DNA of 64,000 bases. It comes from Escherichia coli (GTDB lineage Bacteria; Pseudomonadota; Gammaproteobacteria; Enterobacterales; Enterobacteriaceae). A program made the position numbers and the translations under genes. The stretch is taken from the NCBI RefSeq assembly GCF_016026235.1, contig NZ_CP065613.1; one strand, given 5' to 3'. Numbering within the stretch: the stretch's first letter is position 1; each line of letters starts with the position of its first letter. The notes under the pieces are model-generated. The model worked only from the letters and a program-made list of their open reading frames with translations, searched no databases and was not told where the DNA came from. Of this stretch, positions 53,721 to 57,401 are shown piece by piece.

Positions 53721-55082
53721 TTAGCGACCAGGAAATCCCGGTGGCATCATCCCTTTCATGCTTCTCATCATCTTCGCCATTCCGCCCTTCTTCATTTTCT
53801 TCATCATGCGCTGCATGTCGTCGAACTGTTTCAGAAGACGGTTAACGTCCTGCACCTGCATACCGCAACCGGCAGCAATACGGCGTTTACGCGAACCTTT
53901 GATGATTTCTGGCTTAGCGCGTTCTTTCATCGTCATCGAGTTGATGATGGCTTCCATACGCACCAGCACTTTATCGTCCATCTGCGACTTGACATTATCC
54001 GGGATCTGCCCCATGCCCGGCAGCTTGCCCATCAGGCTAGCCATGCCGCCCATATTTTTCATCTGGCGCAGCTGCTCAAGAAAGTCGTTGAGATCGAAGC
54101 CGTCGCCTTTTTTTAGCTTGCTGGCTAATTTCTCTGCCTGCGCGCGGTCAACTTTGCTTTCGATATCTTCGATCAGCGACAGTACGTCGCCCATGCCGAG
54201 AATACGCGACGCAATGCGGTCCGGATGGAACGGCTCCAGCGCCTCAGTTTTCTCGCCAACACCGAGGAACTTGATCGGTTTGCCAGTGATGTGACGAATA
54301 GAGAGCGCCGCACCGCCGCGGGCATCGCCGTCCACTTTGGTCAACACTACGCCGGTAAGCGGTAACGCTTCATTGAATGCTTTTGCCGTATTGGCCGCAT
54401 CCTGACCGGTCATGGCGTCAACCACAAACAGGGTTTCAACTGGGTTAATCGACGCATGGACTTGTTTGATCTCGTCCATCATCGCTTCGTCAACGTGCAG
54501 ACGACCAGCGGTATCCACCAGCAGCACGTCGTAGAATTTCAGTTTGGCTTCTTTCAGCGCCGCGTTAACGATATCTACCGGCTTCTGACCAACATCAGAA
54601 GGGAAGAAATCAACGCCCACCTGCTCAGCCAGCGTCTCAAGCTGTTTGATTGCCGCCGGGCGATAGACGTCGGCAGAAACCACCAGCACTTTCTTCTTGT
54701 GCTTCTCGCGCAGGAACTTACCGAGTTTACCAACGCTGGTTGTTTTACCAGCACCTTGCAGGCCCGCCATCAGTACGACCGCAGGCGGTTGCGCAGCCAG
54801 GTTCAGGGTCTGGTTCTCTTCGCCCATCGCCGCAACCAGTTCGTTACGGACGATTTTGACGAACTCCTGCCCCGGCGTCAGGCTCTTATTAACTTCATGA
54901 CCAACCGCTTTCTCTTTTACGCGATTGATAAACTCACGCACTACCGGCAGAGCGACGTCCGCCTCCAGCAGCGCCATGCGCACTTCGCGCAGCGTATCTT
55001 TTACGTTGTCTTCAGTGAGGCGTCCACGGCCACTGATATTGCGCAGCGTGCGCGACAAACGATCGGTTAAATTATCAAACAT
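53721..55082 (-). CDS. ffh: Signal recognition particle protein Ffh
   Basis: 453-aa ORF; SRP54 N and G domains, Met-rich M domain. Confidence 0.97.
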   Translation of the reverse strand: MFDNLTDRLSRTLRNISGRGRLTEDNVKDTLREVRMALLEADVALPVVREFINRVKEKAVGHEVNKSLTPGQEFVKIVRNELVAAMGEENQTLNLAAQPPAVVLMAGLQGAGKTTSVGKLGKFLREKHKKKVLVVSADVYRPAAIKQLETLAEQVGVDFFPSDVGQKPVDIVNAALKEAKLKFYDVLLVDTAGRLHVDEAMMDEIKQVHASINPVETLFVVDAMTGQDAANTAKAFNEALPLTGVVLTKVDGDARGGAALSIRHITGKPIKFLGVGEKTEALEPFHPDRIASRILGMGDVLSLIEDIESKVDRAQAEKLASKLKKGDGFDLNDFLEQLRQMKNMGGMASLMGKLPGMGQIPDNVKSQMDDKVLVRMEAIINSMTMKERAKPEIIKGSRKRRIAAGCGMQVQDVNRLLKQFDDMQRMMKKMKKGGMAKMMRSMKGMMPPGFPGR

Positions 55083-55248
55083 TGTCTCTCGCCTGGGGTG
55101 GAAACGGTTGGCCGCAATCGCGACACATCATCAGTATTTTGCCGCAGTATAACATGAAGGCGTCTTTGTTGTTATGCAACGGTTGGAGCAGCGTTCACCT
55201 GACGCTATACTGCTTCTCTTTCTTATTGCTCAAACTGTCGACATTACT

Positions 55249-56040
55249 ATGCCCGTTTTTGCTCTGCTCGCGCTTGTCGCCTACTCCGTCAGTCTTGCGC
55301 TGATTGTTCCCGGTCTGCTGCAAAAAAACGGCGGCTGGCGGCGCATGGCTATTATTTCTGCGGTCATTGCGCTGGTCTGCCACGCAATCGCTCTGGAAGC
55401 CCGCATCCTGCCCGACGGTGATAGCGGACAAAACCTCAGCCTGCTGAACGTTGGTTCATTGGTCAGTTTGATGATCTGTACGGTAATGACCATTGTGGCT
55501 TCTCGCAATCGTGGCTGGTTGCTGCTACCCATTGTCTATGCCTTTGCGCTTATCAACCTGGCGCTGGCAACCTTCATGCCCAATGAATACATCACCCATC
55601 TGGAAGCTACGCCTGGGATGCTGGTGCACATTGGCTTATCGCTCTTTTCCTATGCCACGCTAATTATCGCCGCCCTGTACGCGCTGCAACTGGCGTGGAT
55701 TGATTACCAACTGAAGAACAAGAAACTGGCGTTTAACCAGGAAATGCCGCCATTGATGAGTATCGAGCGTAAAATGTTCCACATCACGCAGATTGGCGTG
55801 GTGCTGCTAACGCTCACGCTTTGCACTGGCCTGTTCTACATGCACAACTTATTTAGCATGGAAAATATCGACAAGGCTGTGCTCTCTATCGTGGCGTGGT
55901 TTGTCTATATTGTGCTGCTGTGGGGACATTATCATGAAGGATGGCGTGGACGCCGCGTCGTCTGGTTTAACGTTGCGGGTGCAGTCATTCTGACACTGGC
56001 CTACTTCGGCAGCCGAATTGTCCAGCAGTTAATCAGCTAA
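55249..56040 (+). CDS. ypjD: Inner membrane protein, cytochrome c assembly (CcsA/ResC)-like family, function unknown
   Basis: Track ORF 55174..56040; start set at MPVFALLALVAYSVSLALIV (263 aa); multiple TM segments, WGHYHEGW-containing region. Confidence 0.85.
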   Translation: MPVFALLALVAYSVSLALIVPGLLQKNGGWRRMAIISAVIALVCHAIALEARILPDGDSGQNLSLLNVGSLVSLMICTVMTIVASRNRGWLLLPIVYAFALINLALATFMPNEYITHLEATPGMLVHIGLSLFSYATLIIAALYALQLAWIDYQLKNKKLAFNQEMPPLMSIERKMFHITQIGVVLLTLTLCTGLFYMHNLFSMENIDKAVLSIVAWFVYIVLLWGHYHEGWRGRRVVWFNVAGAVILTLAYFGSRIVQQLIS

Positions 56041-56084
56041 ACCCAGAAAAGGAGTTTCCCCTGGAACACATTTCTACTACTACG

Positions 56085-57347
56085 TTGATCATTATTCTGA
56101 TCATCATGGTGGTCATTTCAGCCTATTTTTCCGGGTCCGAAACCGGAATGATGACCCTCAACCGCTATCGTCTTCGACATATGGCGAAACAGGGTAATCG
56201 CTCGGCCAAACGCGTCGAAAAATTGCTGCGTAAGCCAGACCGCCTGATAAGCCTGGTGTTAATCGGCAATAACCTGGTCAATATTCTTGCCTCCGCGCTC
56301 GGCACTATTGTTGGGATGCGTTTGTACGGTGATGCAGGCGTGGCAATTGCGACTGGTGTGCTGACTTTTGTCGTACTGGTATTTGCTGAGGTATTGCCGA
56401 AAACCATTGCCGCGCTGTACCCGGAAAAAGTCGCTTATCCGAGTAGTTTTCTGCTGGCTCCGCTGCAAATTTTGATGATGCCGCTGGTCTGGTTGCTGAA
56501 TGCTATCACCCGTATGCTGATGCGCATGATGGGTATCAAAACCGATATCGTGGTTAGCGGCTCTTTGAGCAAAGAAGAGTTGCGCACTATCGTGCACGAA
56601 TCACGCTCACAAATTTCCCGTCGCAATCAGGATATGCTGCTGTCGGTGCTCGATCTGGAAAAAATGACCGTTGATGACATCATGGTGCCGCGCAGTGAAA
56701 TTATCGGTATTGATATCAACGATGACTGGAAATCTATTCTGCGCCAACTCTCCCACTCACCTCACGGGCGCATCGTGCTCTACCGTGATTCGCTGGACGA
56801 CGCCATCAGTATGCTGCGAGTACGTGAAGCTTGGCGGTTGATGTCGGAGAAAAAAGAGTTCACCAAAGAAACCATGCTGCGCGCCGCGGACGAGATCTAT
56901 TTTGTGCCGGAAGGTACGCCGCTCAGCACGCAGTTGGTAAAGTTTCAGCGCAACAAAAAGAAAGTCGGCCTGGTCGTCAACGAGTATGGAGACATTCAGG
57001 GGCTGGTGACGGTTGAAGATATTCTGGAAGAGATTGTCGGCGATTTCACCACGTCGATGTCGCCAACACTTGCCGAAGAGGTCACGCCGCAAAACGACGG
57101 TTCGGTGATTATCGATGGCACCGCCAACGTGCGGGAAATCAACAAAGCCTTTAACTGGCATCTACCGGAAGATGATGCCCGCACGGTTAATGGCGTCATT
57201 CTTGAGGCACTGGAAGAGATCCCTGTCGCAGGCACCCGCGTGCGTATTGGCGAGTACGATATAGATATTCTCGACGTACAGGACAATATGATTAAGCAGG
57301 TAAAAGTTTTTCCTGTGAAACCGCTGCGCGAGAGTGTGGCGGAGTAA
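56085..57347 (+). CDS. yfjD: CNNM/CorB-family membrane protein (DUF21 + CBS pair + CorC_HlyC)
   Basis: 420-aa track ORF with TTG start; an in-frame upstream start shortly after the AGGAG at ~56050 cannot be excluded. Confidence 0.85.
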   Translation: MIIILIIMVVISAYFSGSETGMMTLNRYRLRHMAKQGNRSAKRVEKLLRKPDRLISLVLIGNNLVNILASALGTIVGMRLYGDAGVAIATGVLTFVVLVFAEVLPKTIAALYPEKVAYPSSFLLAPLQILMMPLVWLLNAITRMLMRMMGIKTDIVVSGSLSKEELRTIVHESRSQISRRNQDMLLSVLDLEKMTVDDIMVPRSEIIGIDINDDWKSILRQLSHSPHGRIVLYRDSLDDAISMLRVREAWRLMSEKKEFTKETMLRAADEIYFVPEGTPLSTQLVKFQRNKKKVGLVVNEYGDIQGLVTVEDILEEIVGDFTTSMSPTLAEEVTPQNDGSVIIDGTANVREINKAFNWHLPEDDARTVNGVILEALEEIPVAGTRVRIGEYDIDILDVQDNMIKQVKVFPVKPLRESVAE

Positions 57348-57401
57348 CGAAAACGGCCCTGCATTCGCATGCAGGGCCGTGAATTATTACGAAAACAGAA
57401 A

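What the first reader, a model, noticed from the sequence alone, without database searches (positions are those of the whole stretch)
55249..57347. Adjacent uncharacterised membrane proteins: CcsA-like YpjD and CNNM/CorB-family YfjD
YpjD resembles cytochrome c assembly (system II) proteins, but E. coli matures c-type cytochromes with the Ccm system, so its role is unclear. It sits directly upstream of a CNNM/CorB-family protein and the two may be co-transcribed (44-bp gap, AGGAG before yfjD). The true yfjD start (track TTG versus an upstream in-frame codon) is also uncertain.
Basis: inference. Interest (0 to 1): 0.3.

Follow-up and report, generated by a model that had tools for sequence, protein, structure and literature searches.

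The report
Known E. coli ypjD–yfjD(corB) gene pair
These are two long-annotated core E. coli membrane-protein genes: the doubtful yfjD start was already settled as a rare CTG codon, and YpjD resembles the heme-synthesis regulator HemX rather than a cytochrome c assembly enzyme.

Summary
The coordinates hold. ypjD is 55249-56040 (263 aa) and yfjD ends at 57347, in the E. coli ffh | ypjD-yfjD | grpE region found in 5425 of 5426 complete genomes.

The start-codon question is already answered. RefSeq and EcoGene 3.0 (start-codon mutagenesis) start yfjD at CTG 56061, not TTG 56085. The gap is therefore 20 bp, and AGGAG lies 6 nt before the CTG. In 79 Enterobacteriaceae that codon is always NTG and never ATG, while codon 9 is often CTC, CTT or CTA.

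YfjD is a standard CorB/CNNM cation exporter.

YpjD has the heme-handling fold (PF01578; best structural match CcmF). It lacks the WWD motif, TM-His2 and P-His2, and scores 35.9 bits against the 187.6-bit CcsB cut-off. It is not a cytochrome c synthase.

YpjD aligns over its full length with Bacillus HemX (hhalign 98.3%). Published data fit a role in porphyrin balance:
- ypjD mutants resist N-methyl-mesoporphyrin.
- ypjD mutants are hypersensitive to blue light.
- The gene is absent from heme-auxotrophic Haemophilus haemolyticus.

A HemX-like role is inferred, not shown. Low-to-moderate interest.

The parts
53721..55082 (-). ffh (SRP54), the divergent neighbour of ypjD. This is context and the most deeply conserved linkage.
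   Evidence: ORF and annotation. ffh lies divergently upstream of ypjD homologues in 6 of 7 distant gammaproteobacterial loci, one with a gene in between; the seventh has an unannotated 467-aa upstream gene.
55249..56040 (+). ypjD, 263 aa. An 8-helix inner-membrane protein of the PF01578 heme-handling superfamily, of the HemX-like type that lacks the WWD motif.
   Evidence: RefSeq CDS. Pfam 3.7e-48. AF2 model pLDDT 94.2, 8 helices. Foldseek top hit CcmF 6zmq, TMq 0.64. ATG at the equivalent position in 70 of 71 Enterobacteriaceae; the upstream ATG at 55174 is not conserved.
55381..55383 (+). Codon for His45 (helix 2, periplasmic half).
   Evidence: His in 90 of 104 family members and Gln in 9. 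Position in the helix.
55627..55629 (+). Codon for His127 (helix 5, near the periplasmic end). It is the counterpart of CcsA P-His1.
   Evidence: Invariant in 104 of 104. Aligns with the His of CcsB 'HVS' and HemX 'IHIT'.
55831..55884 (+). Residues 195-212, the periplasmic loop and start of helix 7 that correspond to the CcsA WWD domain. The motif is degenerate here: no Trp, and only Lys209 is kept.
   Evidence: The CcsB stretch 'WAEAAWGRFWGWDPKE' aligns with the YpjD family stretch 'FlddlfaqHlahK'. 0 of 104 carry a WWD-like motif, and 88 of 104 have no Trp in this segment.
56041..56060 (+). The 20-bp ypjD-yfjD spacer, with the Shine-Dalgarno AGGAG at 56050-56054.
   Evidence: Sequence. In all 79 Enterobacteriaceae, the GGA of the Shine-Dalgarno ends 6-8 nt before the NTG start. 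No terminator-like site lies here.
56061..57347 (+). yfjD (= corB), 428 aa, with a CTG start codon. A CNNM/CorB-family cation exporter: CNNM domain at residues 11-184 (56091-56612), CBS pair at about 201-330 (56661-57050), CorC_HlyC at 344-418 (57090-57314).
   Evidence: RefSeq CDS. EcoGene mutagenesis. Pfam. NCBIfam equivalog NF008604, 866.7 bits against a 475-bit cut-off, aligned 1-427 of 428. Archaeal CorB 7m1u at E 5.7e-44 over residues 10-326.
56085..56087 (+). TTG, the former or 'track' start. It is actually codon 9 (Leu).
   Evidence: Across 79 species this codon is CTG 48, TTG 11, CTC 10, CTT 5, CTA 5. Mutating it had no effect on expression (PMC3531124).
57353..57380 (.). A 12-bp GC-rich hairpin between the convergent genes yfjD and grpE. 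It is the likely end of the ypjD-yfjD transcript.
   Evidence: Terminator-like site. RNA fold -26.3 kcal/mol, z = -5.8.

Best explanation
This is the known core E. coli gene pair ypjD-yfjD.

**Gene structure (shown).** yfjD starts at the rare CTG codon at 56061, 20 bp after the ypjD stop, behind its own AGGAG. The next strong hairpin comes only after yfjD. The two genes are therefore most likely one transcript; this step is inferred.

**YfjD (homology shown, activity inferred).** YfjD is the E. coli CorB. It is a CNNM-type membrane exporter of Mg2+-type divalent cations, with a cytoplasmic CBS pair that in homologues binds Mg-ATP. Its ion-site residues are kept.

**YpjD.**
- Shown: it does not mature cytochrome c. 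It is an eight-helix, N-out/C-out member of the heme-handling fold. It has lost the WWD heme-presenting motif and two of the three CcsA histidines.
- Shown: it keeps an invariant His127 and a conserved His45 and Lys209, all in the periplasmic leaflet.
- Shown: its closest characterised relative is Gram-positive HemX, which lowers the level of glutamyl-tRNA reductase.
- Inferred: YpjD binds a tetrapyrrole in the outer leaflet and restrains porphyrin and heme accumulation, possibly by lowering HemA (GtrR) abundance as HemX does.
- This single mechanism would explain both published mutant phenotypes. More endogenous porphyrin gives blue-light hypersensitivity. More endogenous porphyrin or heme also competes with N-methyl-mesoporphyrin, giving resistance.
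For: **Gene structure**
- RefSeq coordinates and EcoGene start-codon mutagenesis.
- The NTG start is conserved in 79 of 79 Enterobacteriaceae (TTG 34, CTG 31, GTG 14). The Shine-Dalgarno lies 6-8 nt upstream in every case.
- The called start is TTG in 4 of 4 distant homologues.
- The only hairpin follows yfjD.

**YfjD**
- Domain architecture and equivalog score.
- MtCorB match at E 5.7e-44. MtCorB Ser21, Ser25, Glu111 and Pro114 align with YfjD S20, S24, E110 and P113.
- Background on Salmonella corB.

**YpjD**
- Pfam 3.7e-48, but only 35.9 bits against the 187.6-bit CcsB cut-off.
- AF2 model at pLDDT 94.2 with 8 helices. Foldseek hits CcmF (probability 1.0, TMq 0.64) and CcsBA (probability 0.96).
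- No WWD motif in 104 of 104 members. H127 is invariant, H45 is present in 90 of 104 and K209 in 96 of 104.
- The YpjD-family HMM scores HemX at 62-76 bits, CcsB at 38-48 and CcmC/CcmF below 0.
- hhalign gives HemX 98.3% over 251 columns (full length) and CcsB 97.0% over 226 columns.
- Charge distribution fits an N-out/C-out topology, the same as reported for HemX.

**Phenotypes and distribution**
- A tolC ypjD::kan mutant resists NMM but not Braco-19. The authors themselves suggest a role in porphyrin biology (PMC11975287).
- The Keio ypjD mutant is hypersensitive to blue light, at 2.68 log10, with no marked H2O2 or superoxide defect.
- The YpjD COG is present in all heme-prototrophic Haemophilus HMT-036 genomes and missing in heme-auxotrophic H. 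haemolyticus.
- B. subtilis HemX lowers GtrR when both are expressed in E. coli.
Against: - No experiment links YpjD to HemA (GtrR). In enterobacteria, HemA turnover is attributed to heme-dependent proteolysis.
- The hallmark of HemX is adjacency to gtrR, seen in 94% of genomes. This is absent here and in all 7 distant loci, where the conserved neighbour is ffh instead.
- HemX scores closer to CcsB than to YpjD with its own HMM: 52-65 bits against 31. YpjD is therefore a separate, more derived branch.
- Both phenotypes come from kan-insertion alleles upstream of yfjD, so polar effects are not excluded.
- The blue-light screen also picks up many unrelated genes.
- The Haemophilus contrast is a single lineage comparison, with six other COGs showing the same pattern.
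- The mode of NMM toxicity is unsettled, so 'competition' is an assumption.
- Co-transcription was not measured.
Confidence: 0.5

Rival explanations
1. YpjD is a tetrapyrrole transporter rather than a regulator. It would move porphyrins across the inner membrane, for example by importing exogenous NMM or porphyrin, and would be a WWD-less remnant of the CcsA heme channel.
For: - The CcsA/CcsBA fold is a heme export channel, and YpjD shares that fold.
- Loss of an importer explains NMM-specific resistance directly. The NAR authors list import or export as options.
- Conserved polar residues line the periplasmic leaflet.
Against: - An importer does not explain blue-light hypersensitivity.
- An exporter explains that phenotype but predicts NMM hypersensitivity, the opposite of what was observed.
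- The TM-His site used for heme transit in CcsA is not conserved: position 225 is W, I or L.
Confidence: 0.25
2. YpjD is a functional partner or accessory subunit of the CorB cation exporter, and the reported phenotypes reflect cation homeostasis or polarity on yfjD.
For: - Tight spacing and the same gene order in 79 of 79 Enterobacteriaceae and 4 of 7 distant loci.
- The published alleles are insertions upstream of yfjD.
Against: - Two or three of the 7 distant ypjD homologues have no adjacent CNNM gene but keep ffh.
- CNNM/CorB proteins function and crystallise without such a partner.
- Resistance is porphyrin-specific (NMM but not Braco-19).
- A Salmonella corB deletion gave no phenotype in cation-stress assays.
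Confidence: 0.1
3. YpjD acts in SRP-linked membrane-protein biogenesis or is growth-rate co-regulated with the ffh and rpsP-rimM-trmD-rplS genes. Its heme-family fold would then be incidental.
For: - The divergent ffh-ypjD arrangement is the most conserved linkage.
- ypjD fell together with rpsP, rimM, trmD and rplS in one array study.
Against: - Conserved gene order beside a highly conserved ribosomal cluster can be inherited without any functional link.
- Nothing in the sequence suggests a translocation role.
- The phenotypes point to porphyrins.
Confidence: 0.05
4. YpjD is a genuine system II-type cytochrome c or heme-attachment factor that backs up the Ccm system.
For: Strong PF01578 match. 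P-His1 is retained.
Against: - The WWD motif, TM-His2 and P-His2 are absent.
- The score is far below the CcsB cut-off.
- There is no ResB/CcsB partner gene nearby.
- E. coli has a complete Ccm operon.
Confidence: 0.03

Closest known systems
HemX of Bacillus subtilis / Staphylococcus aureus (PF01578; lowers glutamyl-tRNA reductase abundance)
   Same: - Similar length (263 vs 276 aa) and eight helices with an N-out/C-out topology.
- Full-length colinear alignment: hhalign 98.3%, 251 columns. YpjD-family HMM scores of 62-76 bits.
- The P-His1 equivalent is kept, the WWD motif is degenerate, TM-His2 is lost, and the Lys after the WWD position is kept.
- Both occur in organisms where the protein is not needed for cytochrome c maturation.
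- NCBI even names some Bacillaceae HemX proteins 'inner membrane protein YpjD'.
   Different: - Only about 18% identity.
- HemX is adjacent to gtrR in 94% of genomes. YpjD is never adjacent to it here and sits beside ffh, often followed by corB.
- HemX keeps two Trp of the WWD stretch ('YWFDAK'); YpjD keeps none.
- YpjD has a conserved His45 where Bacillus HemX has Gln, and a GWRG loop where HemX has 'ELQG'.
- No effect on GtrR has been tested for YpjD.
- No paper in the searched library links the two.
CcsA/ResC (NCBI 'CcsB', TIGR03144), the system II cytochrome c synthase subunit
   Same: - Same Pfam domain and fold.
- Homologous over about 226 columns (hhalign 97.0%).
- P-His1, the cytoplasmic 'LP...L(E/D)' loop and the GWRG-type loop are conserved.
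   Different: - Scores 35.9 bits against a 187.6-bit cut-off.
- WWD, TM-His2 and P-His2 are missing.
- No ResB partner gene.
- Shorter, because it lacks the CcsA N-terminal extension.
CcmF / CcmC (system I heme-handling proteins; CcmF structure 6ZMQ)
   Same: Best structural match is CcmF: Foldseek probability 1.0, TMq 0.64.
   Different: - No detectable sequence similarity to E. coli CcmC or CcmF.
- No WWD motif.
- Not in the ccm operon.
CorB/CNNM Mg2+ transporters (M. thermophilus CorB 7M1U, T. parvatiensis CorC TM domain 7CFF, S. aureus MpfA, Salmonella CorB)
   Same: - YfjD has the CNNM + CBS-pair + CorC_HlyC architecture.
- E 5.7e-44 to MtCorB over the TM and CBS domains.
- Ion-site residues Ser, Ser, Glu and Pro are conserved.
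- The MtCorB authors used it as the E. coli representative alongside Salmonella CorB.
   Different: - MtCorB Ser71 corresponds to Asn70.
- The substrate and direction of transport in E. coli have not been measured.
- A Salmonella corB deletion shows no phenotype in excess-cation assays.
- The start codon is non-ATG (CTG in E. coli).
PaeA (YtfL), the polyamine exporter paralogue
   Same: Same three-domain architecture. YfjD scores 178 bits against the PaeA model.
   Different: That score is far below the 500-bit PaeA equivalog cut-off. YfjD belongs to a different orthologous group (NF008604).

Membership tests
CcsA/ResC system II cytochrome c synthase (TIGR03144) | PF01578 domain and heme-handling fold | tested here: met
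   Pfam 3.7e-48. Foldseek hits CcmF and CcsBA.
CcsA/ResC system II cytochrome c synthase (TIGR03144) | Score at or above the curated equivalog cut-off | tested here: not met
   35.9 bits against 187.6.
CcsA/ResC system II cytochrome c synthase (TIGR03144) | Trp-rich WWD motif (WGxxWxWDPKE) in the periplasmic loop | tested here: not met
   0 of 104 family members have a WWD-like motif. The aligned stretch is 'FlddlfaqHlahK'.
CcsA/ResC system II cytochrome c synthase (TIGR03144) | Three conserved histidines (P-His1, TM-His2, P-His2) | tested here: not met
   Only P-His1 (H127) is kept. The TM-His2 position is W, I or L. The protein ends before P-His2.
CcsA/ResC system II cytochrome c synthase (TIGR03144) | Partner ResB/CcsB gene in the genome neighbourhood | tested here: not met
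   The neighbours are ffh and yfjD. The plasmid-borne ccsB genes used as references do sit beside resB in 2 of 3 loci.
HemX (Firmicutes-type regulator of GtrR) | Full-length homology and an eight-TM, N-out/C-out architecture | tested here: met
   hhalign 98.3% over 251 columns. 8 helices. Charge bias. HemX topology as reported.
HemX (Firmicutes-type regulator of GtrR) | Gene adjacent to gtrR (hemA) | tested here: not met
   No hemA next to ypjD in E. coli or in 7 distant loci.
HemX (Firmicutes-type regulator of GtrR) | Occurs only in genomes able to make heme | tested here: inconclusive
   One literature contrast fits: Haemophilus HMT-036 versus H. haemolyticus. No systematic phyletic profile could be run.
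HemX (Firmicutes-type regulator of GtrR) | Loss raises GtrR abundance and heme or porphyrin synthesis | not testable with these tools
   Only indirect phenotypes exist: NMM resistance and blue-light hypersensitivity.
CNNM/CorB cation transporter | CNNM (DUF21) TM domain + CBS pair + CorC_HlyC domain | tested here: met
   Pfam 8e-54, 9.9e-09 and 2.3e-19.
CNNM/CorB cation transporter | Orthologue-level model (NF008604) | tested here: met
   866.7 bits against 475, aligned 1-427 of 428 with the CTG-start protein.
CNNM/CorB cation transporter | Conserved ion-site residues and the pi-helix Glu/Pro | tested here: met
   MtCorB S21, S25, E111 and P114 align with YfjD S20, S24, E110 and P113. MtCorB S71 aligns with N70 (alignment; residue list).
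CNNM/CorB cation transporter | Mg2+ (divalent cation) efflux activity | not testable with these tools
   Inferred from homologues and from Salmonella corB genetics.

The most novel reading that the evidence does not exclude
YpjD is the Gram-negative counterpart of HemX: a membrane tetrapyrrole sensor that uses His45 and His127 in the outer leaflet and sets HemA (glutamyl-tRNA reductase) abundance. It would supply the missing membrane input to the heme-dependent control of tetrapyrrole synthesis in enterobacteria. Its conserved pairing with corB and ffh would point to coordinated control of envelope cofactor and cation supply.
Probability: 0.3. Interest if true: 0.6.

Novelty: already known. 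Interest (0 to 1): 0.3.

Why it matters
Most of the finding is settled annotation.
- Both genes are core E. coli genes.
- The yfjD start is a documented example of a rare CTG initiation codon.
- YfjD belongs to a structurally characterised transporter family.

What remains open is the function of YpjD, one of the conserved E. coli inner-membrane proteins with no assigned role. If it acts like HemX, it would fill a gap in how Gram-negative bacteria limit porphyrin and heme synthesis. That bears on blue-light and photodynamic killing, on porphyrin drug sensitivity and on engineered heme production. The hypothesis can be tested with one immunoblot and one porphyrin measurement in an existing Keio mutant.

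Tried and rejected
- **PDB sequence searches.** YpjD alone and the 104-sequence family profile found nothing, even at E <= 10.
- **hhalign against E. coli CcmC and CcmF.** The family profile gave no significant alignment to either single sequence. The relationship to system I proteins therefore rests on structure only.
- **The search for related loci with the 104-sequence alignment.** This failed because no stretch was conserved enough.
- **Genome-contig scan with the narrower alignment.** That served the start-codon analysis but not deep synteny. Synteny had to come from seven exact-protein look-ups, and one further look-up found nothing.
- **afdb50 fold search.** The library was not available, so HemX could not be compared by structure.
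- **Obtaining reference sequences.** I fished HemX and CcsA from databases using sequences recalled from memory. All comparisons used only the real database proteins that came back. These were P0390 (93% identical to my recollection), proteins named 'protein HemX', and RefSeq-annotated ccsB genes.
- **E-values.** They were computed with Z=1, so only the bit scores should be read.
- **Promoter scan.** It found no plus-strand site, not even for ypjD itself. It therefore cannot decide between one promoter and two.
- **Rfam.** Nothing was found, so no M-box-type Mg2+ riboswitch precedes yfjD.
- **Upstream ATG at 55174.** This gives a 288-aa YpjD and is used by many automated gene calls. I rejected it because it is not conserved, and the frame is closed 3-16 codons upstream in many species.
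- **Distance between His45 and His127.** It could not be measured because model coordinates are not exposed.
Full report
**1. What is there**

The window region is the E. coli rimM-rpsP-ffh(-) | ypjD(+) yfjD(+) | grpE(-) nadK(+) recN(+) locus. A 2.6-kb query covering the finding matches 5425 of 5426 complete E. coli genomes at 95% identity or better, so it is core genome.

RefSeq annotates ypjD ('cytochrome C assembly family protein') at window 55249-56040. It annotates yfjD ('HlyC/CorC family transporter') at 56061-57347 (window = locus + 53399). The finding's outer coordinates are exact.

**2. The yfjD start codon**

RefSeq instead uses CTG 56061 (428 aa).

This is documented. [quoted passage not shown] My comparative check agrees. 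I examined 79 Enterobacteriaceae loci from a genome scan:
- The codon aligned with 56061 is always NTG: TTG 34, CTG 31, GTG 14.
- Codon 9 is CTG 48, TTG 11, CTC 10, CTT 5, CTA 5, so it is often not a possible start.
- The GGA of the Shine-Dalgarno ends 6-8 nt before the NTG in all 79.

The NCBIfam orthologue model aligns positions 1-427 of 428 with the CTG-start protein.

In four distant gammaproteobacterial homologues the called start is TTG at the equivalent position. ATG is therefore never used in 83 loci. This suggests weak initiation is tolerated or selected; that is my inference.

The real spacer is 20 bp, with AGGAG at 56050-56054.

**3. One transcript or two**

No terminator-like site lies between the genes. 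The only strong hairpin is at 57353-57380, directly after the yfjD stop. It has a 12-bp stem, -26.3 kcal/mol and z = -5.8, and is shared with the convergent gene grpE.

The ypjD-stop-to-yfjD-start distance is 10-37 nt in 74 of 79 Enterobacteriaceae. Rfam finds no RNA element in the region.

Co-transcription is thus likely but not shown. The promoter scan was too insensitive to exclude an internal promoter.

**4. YfjD**

YfjD has the CNNM + CBS + CorC_HlyC domain set. It passes the orthologue model at 866.7 bits against a 475-bit cut-off.

It aligns with the archaeal CorB Mg2+ transporter 7M1U at E 5.7e-44 across the membrane and CBS domains. The ion-coordinating or invariant residues named for MtCorB are Ser21, Ser25, Glu111 and Pro114. 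They align with YfjD Ser20, Ser24, Glu110 and Pro113. MtCorB Ser71 aligns with Asn70.

The MtCorB authors list Salmonella CorB and E. coli yfjD together in their tree. Salmonella corB was found as a cobalt-resistance locus implicated in Mg2+ efflux. A recent study saw no phenotype for a corB deletion in excess-cation stress (PMC12421838).

YfjD is therefore an ordinary CorB-family member whose physiological role in enterobacteria is still thin.

**5. YpjD is not a CcsA**

It matches PF01578 strongly (3.7e-48). Against the CcsB/ResC equivalog model it reaches only 35.9 bits, with a cut-off of 187.6.

An exhaustive search found 2292 cluster representatives with E <= 0.001. The full-length members run 250-297 aa and share 24-49% identity with E. 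coli YpjD. The ones that could be named are all gammaproteobacterial.

An AlphaFold model built on 104 of them is confident (pLDDT 94.2, pTM 0.91) and has eight helices. Its best PDB matches are CcmF (6ZMQ; probability 1.0, TMq 0.64) and CcsBA (7S9Z; probability 0.96). The fold is that of the heme-handling proteins.

I retrieved three RefSeq-annotated ccsB genes from actinobacterial plasmids as references and aligned them with the family profile:
- CcsB P-His1 ('HVS') aligns with YpjD His127, which is invariant in 104 of 104.
- The WWD stretch 'WAEAAWGRFWGWDPKE' aligns with 'FlddlfaqHlahK'. All Trp are lost, and only the Lys (K209, 96 of 104) is kept.
- TM-His2 ('YLHAR') aligns with position 225 (W, I or L).
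- The protein ends before P-His2 ('GLHSYG').

None of the 104 sequences has a WWD-like motif. The neighbours are ffh and yfjD, not resB, and E. coli has the full ccm operon.

**6. What YpjD resembles instead**

Bacillus and Staphylococcus HemX is a PF01578 protein with eight predicted TM helices and extracytoplasmic termini. It keeps glutamyl-tRNA reductase (GtrR/HemA) low. Its loss raises heme synthesis, and its mechanism is unknown (PMC5801465).

I recovered real HemX proteins with a recalled B. subtilis sequence used only as bait. The top hit was 93% identical. Several hits are named 'protein HemX' or 'Negative effector of the concentration of HemA', and some are named 'inner membrane protein YpjD' by NCBI.

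| Comparison | Result |
|---|---|
| YpjD-family HMM vs HemX | 62-76 bits |
| YpjD-family HMM vs CcsB | 38-48 bits |
| YpjD-family HMM vs CcmC/CcmF | below 0 |
| hhalign, YpjD family vs HemX | 98.3%, 251 columns, end to end |
| hhalign, YpjD family vs CcsB | 97.0%, 226 columns |
| hhalign, HemX vs CcsB | 97.9% |

HemX shares the retained P-His1, the degenerate WWD and the lost TM-His2.

In YpjD the Lys/Arg-rich loops are 25-32, 86-92, 156-159 and 231-236. The acidic loops are 54-64, 110-121 and 198-206. This gives an N-out/C-out topology. It places His45, His127, residue 208 (His in 86 of 104) and Lys209 all in the periplasmic leaflet.

The differences matter:
- Identity is about 18%.
- HemX's own HMM prefers CcsB over YpjD.
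- HemX is adjacent to gtrR in 94% of genomes, and YpjD never is.

**7. Genomic context beyond Enterobacteriaceae**

I examined seven homologues at 30-55% identity: Thioalbus, a Vibrio and four metagenome or MAG contigs.
- ffh lies divergently upstream in six, one with a gene in between. The seventh (L085) has an unannotated 467-aa gene of ffh-like length in that position.
- A CNNM/CBS/CorC gene follows in four.
- A DUF5619 gene follows in two.
- An unrelated gene follows in one.

The ffh linkage is therefore deeper than the corB linkage. I have no functional explanation for it. It may simply be inherited order beside the conserved rpsP-rimM-trmD-rplS cluster.

**8. Published phenotypes**

- In a Tn-seq study of G-quadruplex ligands, ypjD was a strong hit. 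The tolC ypjD::kan mutant was resistant to the porphyrin NMM but not to Braco-19. [quoted passage not shown]
- In a Keio screen, the ypjD mutant was one of 64 mutants hypersensitive to antimicrobial blue light. Blue light acts through endogenous flavins and porphyrins. The ypjD value was 2.68 log10, with no marked defect against H2O2 or paraquat.
- In Haemophilus, the YpjD COG is present in all HMT-036 genomes, which have complete HemABCDEGHKNL and CysG. It is missing in the heme-auxotrophic H. haemolyticus (PMC10986600).

No paper in the library mentions ypjD together with HemX.

**9. Most likely mechanism**

A HemX-like brake on tetrapyrrole synthesis explains both phenotypes with one assumption: losing it raises endogenous porphyrin or heme. 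That gives more photosensitiser, and more competitor for NMM at ferrochelatase or on G-quadruplexes.

A pure importer explains only NMM resistance. A pure exporter explains only light sensitivity and predicts the wrong sign for NMM.

Confidence by level:
- Gene structure, the family assignments and 'not a cytochrome c synthase' are well supported, at about 0.9.
- 'Handles or senses a tetrapyrrole and affects porphyrin balance' I put at about 0.6.
- The specific HemX-like control of HemA I put at about 0.3.

The caveats are possible polarity of the kan alleles on yfjD, the noisy blue-light screen, a single phyletic contrast and the absence of hemA linkage.

**10. Verdict**

The finding describes real, correctly located, already-annotated genes. 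Its most concrete question, the yfjD start, has a published answer that the comparative data confirm. Its 'CcsA-like' reading should be replaced by 'WWD-less, HemX-type heme-handling homologue'.

The functional hypothesis for YpjD is cheap to test and modestly interesting. The locus itself is ordinary.

Noticed in passing
window 56061-56063, and the equivalent codon in L002-L081, L082, L090-L092: The corB/yfjD start codon is never ATG in the 83 loci examined. In 79 Enterobacteriaceae it is TTG 34, CTG 31 and GTG 14, and it is TTG in 4 distant gammaproteobacteria. It switches repeatedly among the weak start codons, which suggests selection for low initiation.
   Followed up: partly
window 53721-55248; L082-L085, L090-L093: The divergent ffh <> ypjD arrangement is conserved from E. 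coli to Vibrio, Thioalbus and uncultured gammaproteobacteria. It is conserved more deeply than the ypjD-corB pairing. No functional reason is known.
   Followed up: partly
window 55174-55248: An in-frame upstream ATG gives a 288-aa YpjD that many automated gene calls use (JGI, ENA and Logan entries). It is not conserved: 58 of 71 Enterobacteriaceae have no upstream in-frame ATG, and the frame closes 3-16 codons upstream in many.
   Followed up: yes
window 57353-57380: A perfect 12-bp GC-rich hairpin (-26.3 kcal/mol, z = -5.8) lies between the convergent genes yfjD and grpE. It probably serves as a terminator for both.
   Followed up: partly
proteins P0485, P0493, P0503, P0505, P0507: NCBI names several Bacillaceae HemX proteins 'inner membrane protein YpjD', while UniRef or JGI call the same clusters HemX. 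The databases thus already merge the two families by name without any functional statement.
   Followed up: no
L084 5804-6148; L093 4821-5162: In two uncultured gammaproteobacterial contigs, a small DUF5619 gene directly follows ypjD (overlapping or 10 bp away) in the place corB occupies elsewhere. Flagellar genes lie next to it.
   Followed up: no
L087, L088, L089 (actinobacterial plasmids): Plasmid-borne resB-ccsB cytochrome c biogenesis genes sit beside multicopper oxidase, P-type ATPase or CopY-type regulator genes. They look like part of copper-resistance modules.
   Followed up: no
window 55146-55175 (- strand): The only sigma-70-like consensus match in the region (ATAACA, 18-nt spacer, TATACT, with an extended -10 TG) lies in the ffh-ypjD intergenic region and points towards ffh.
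   Followed up: no
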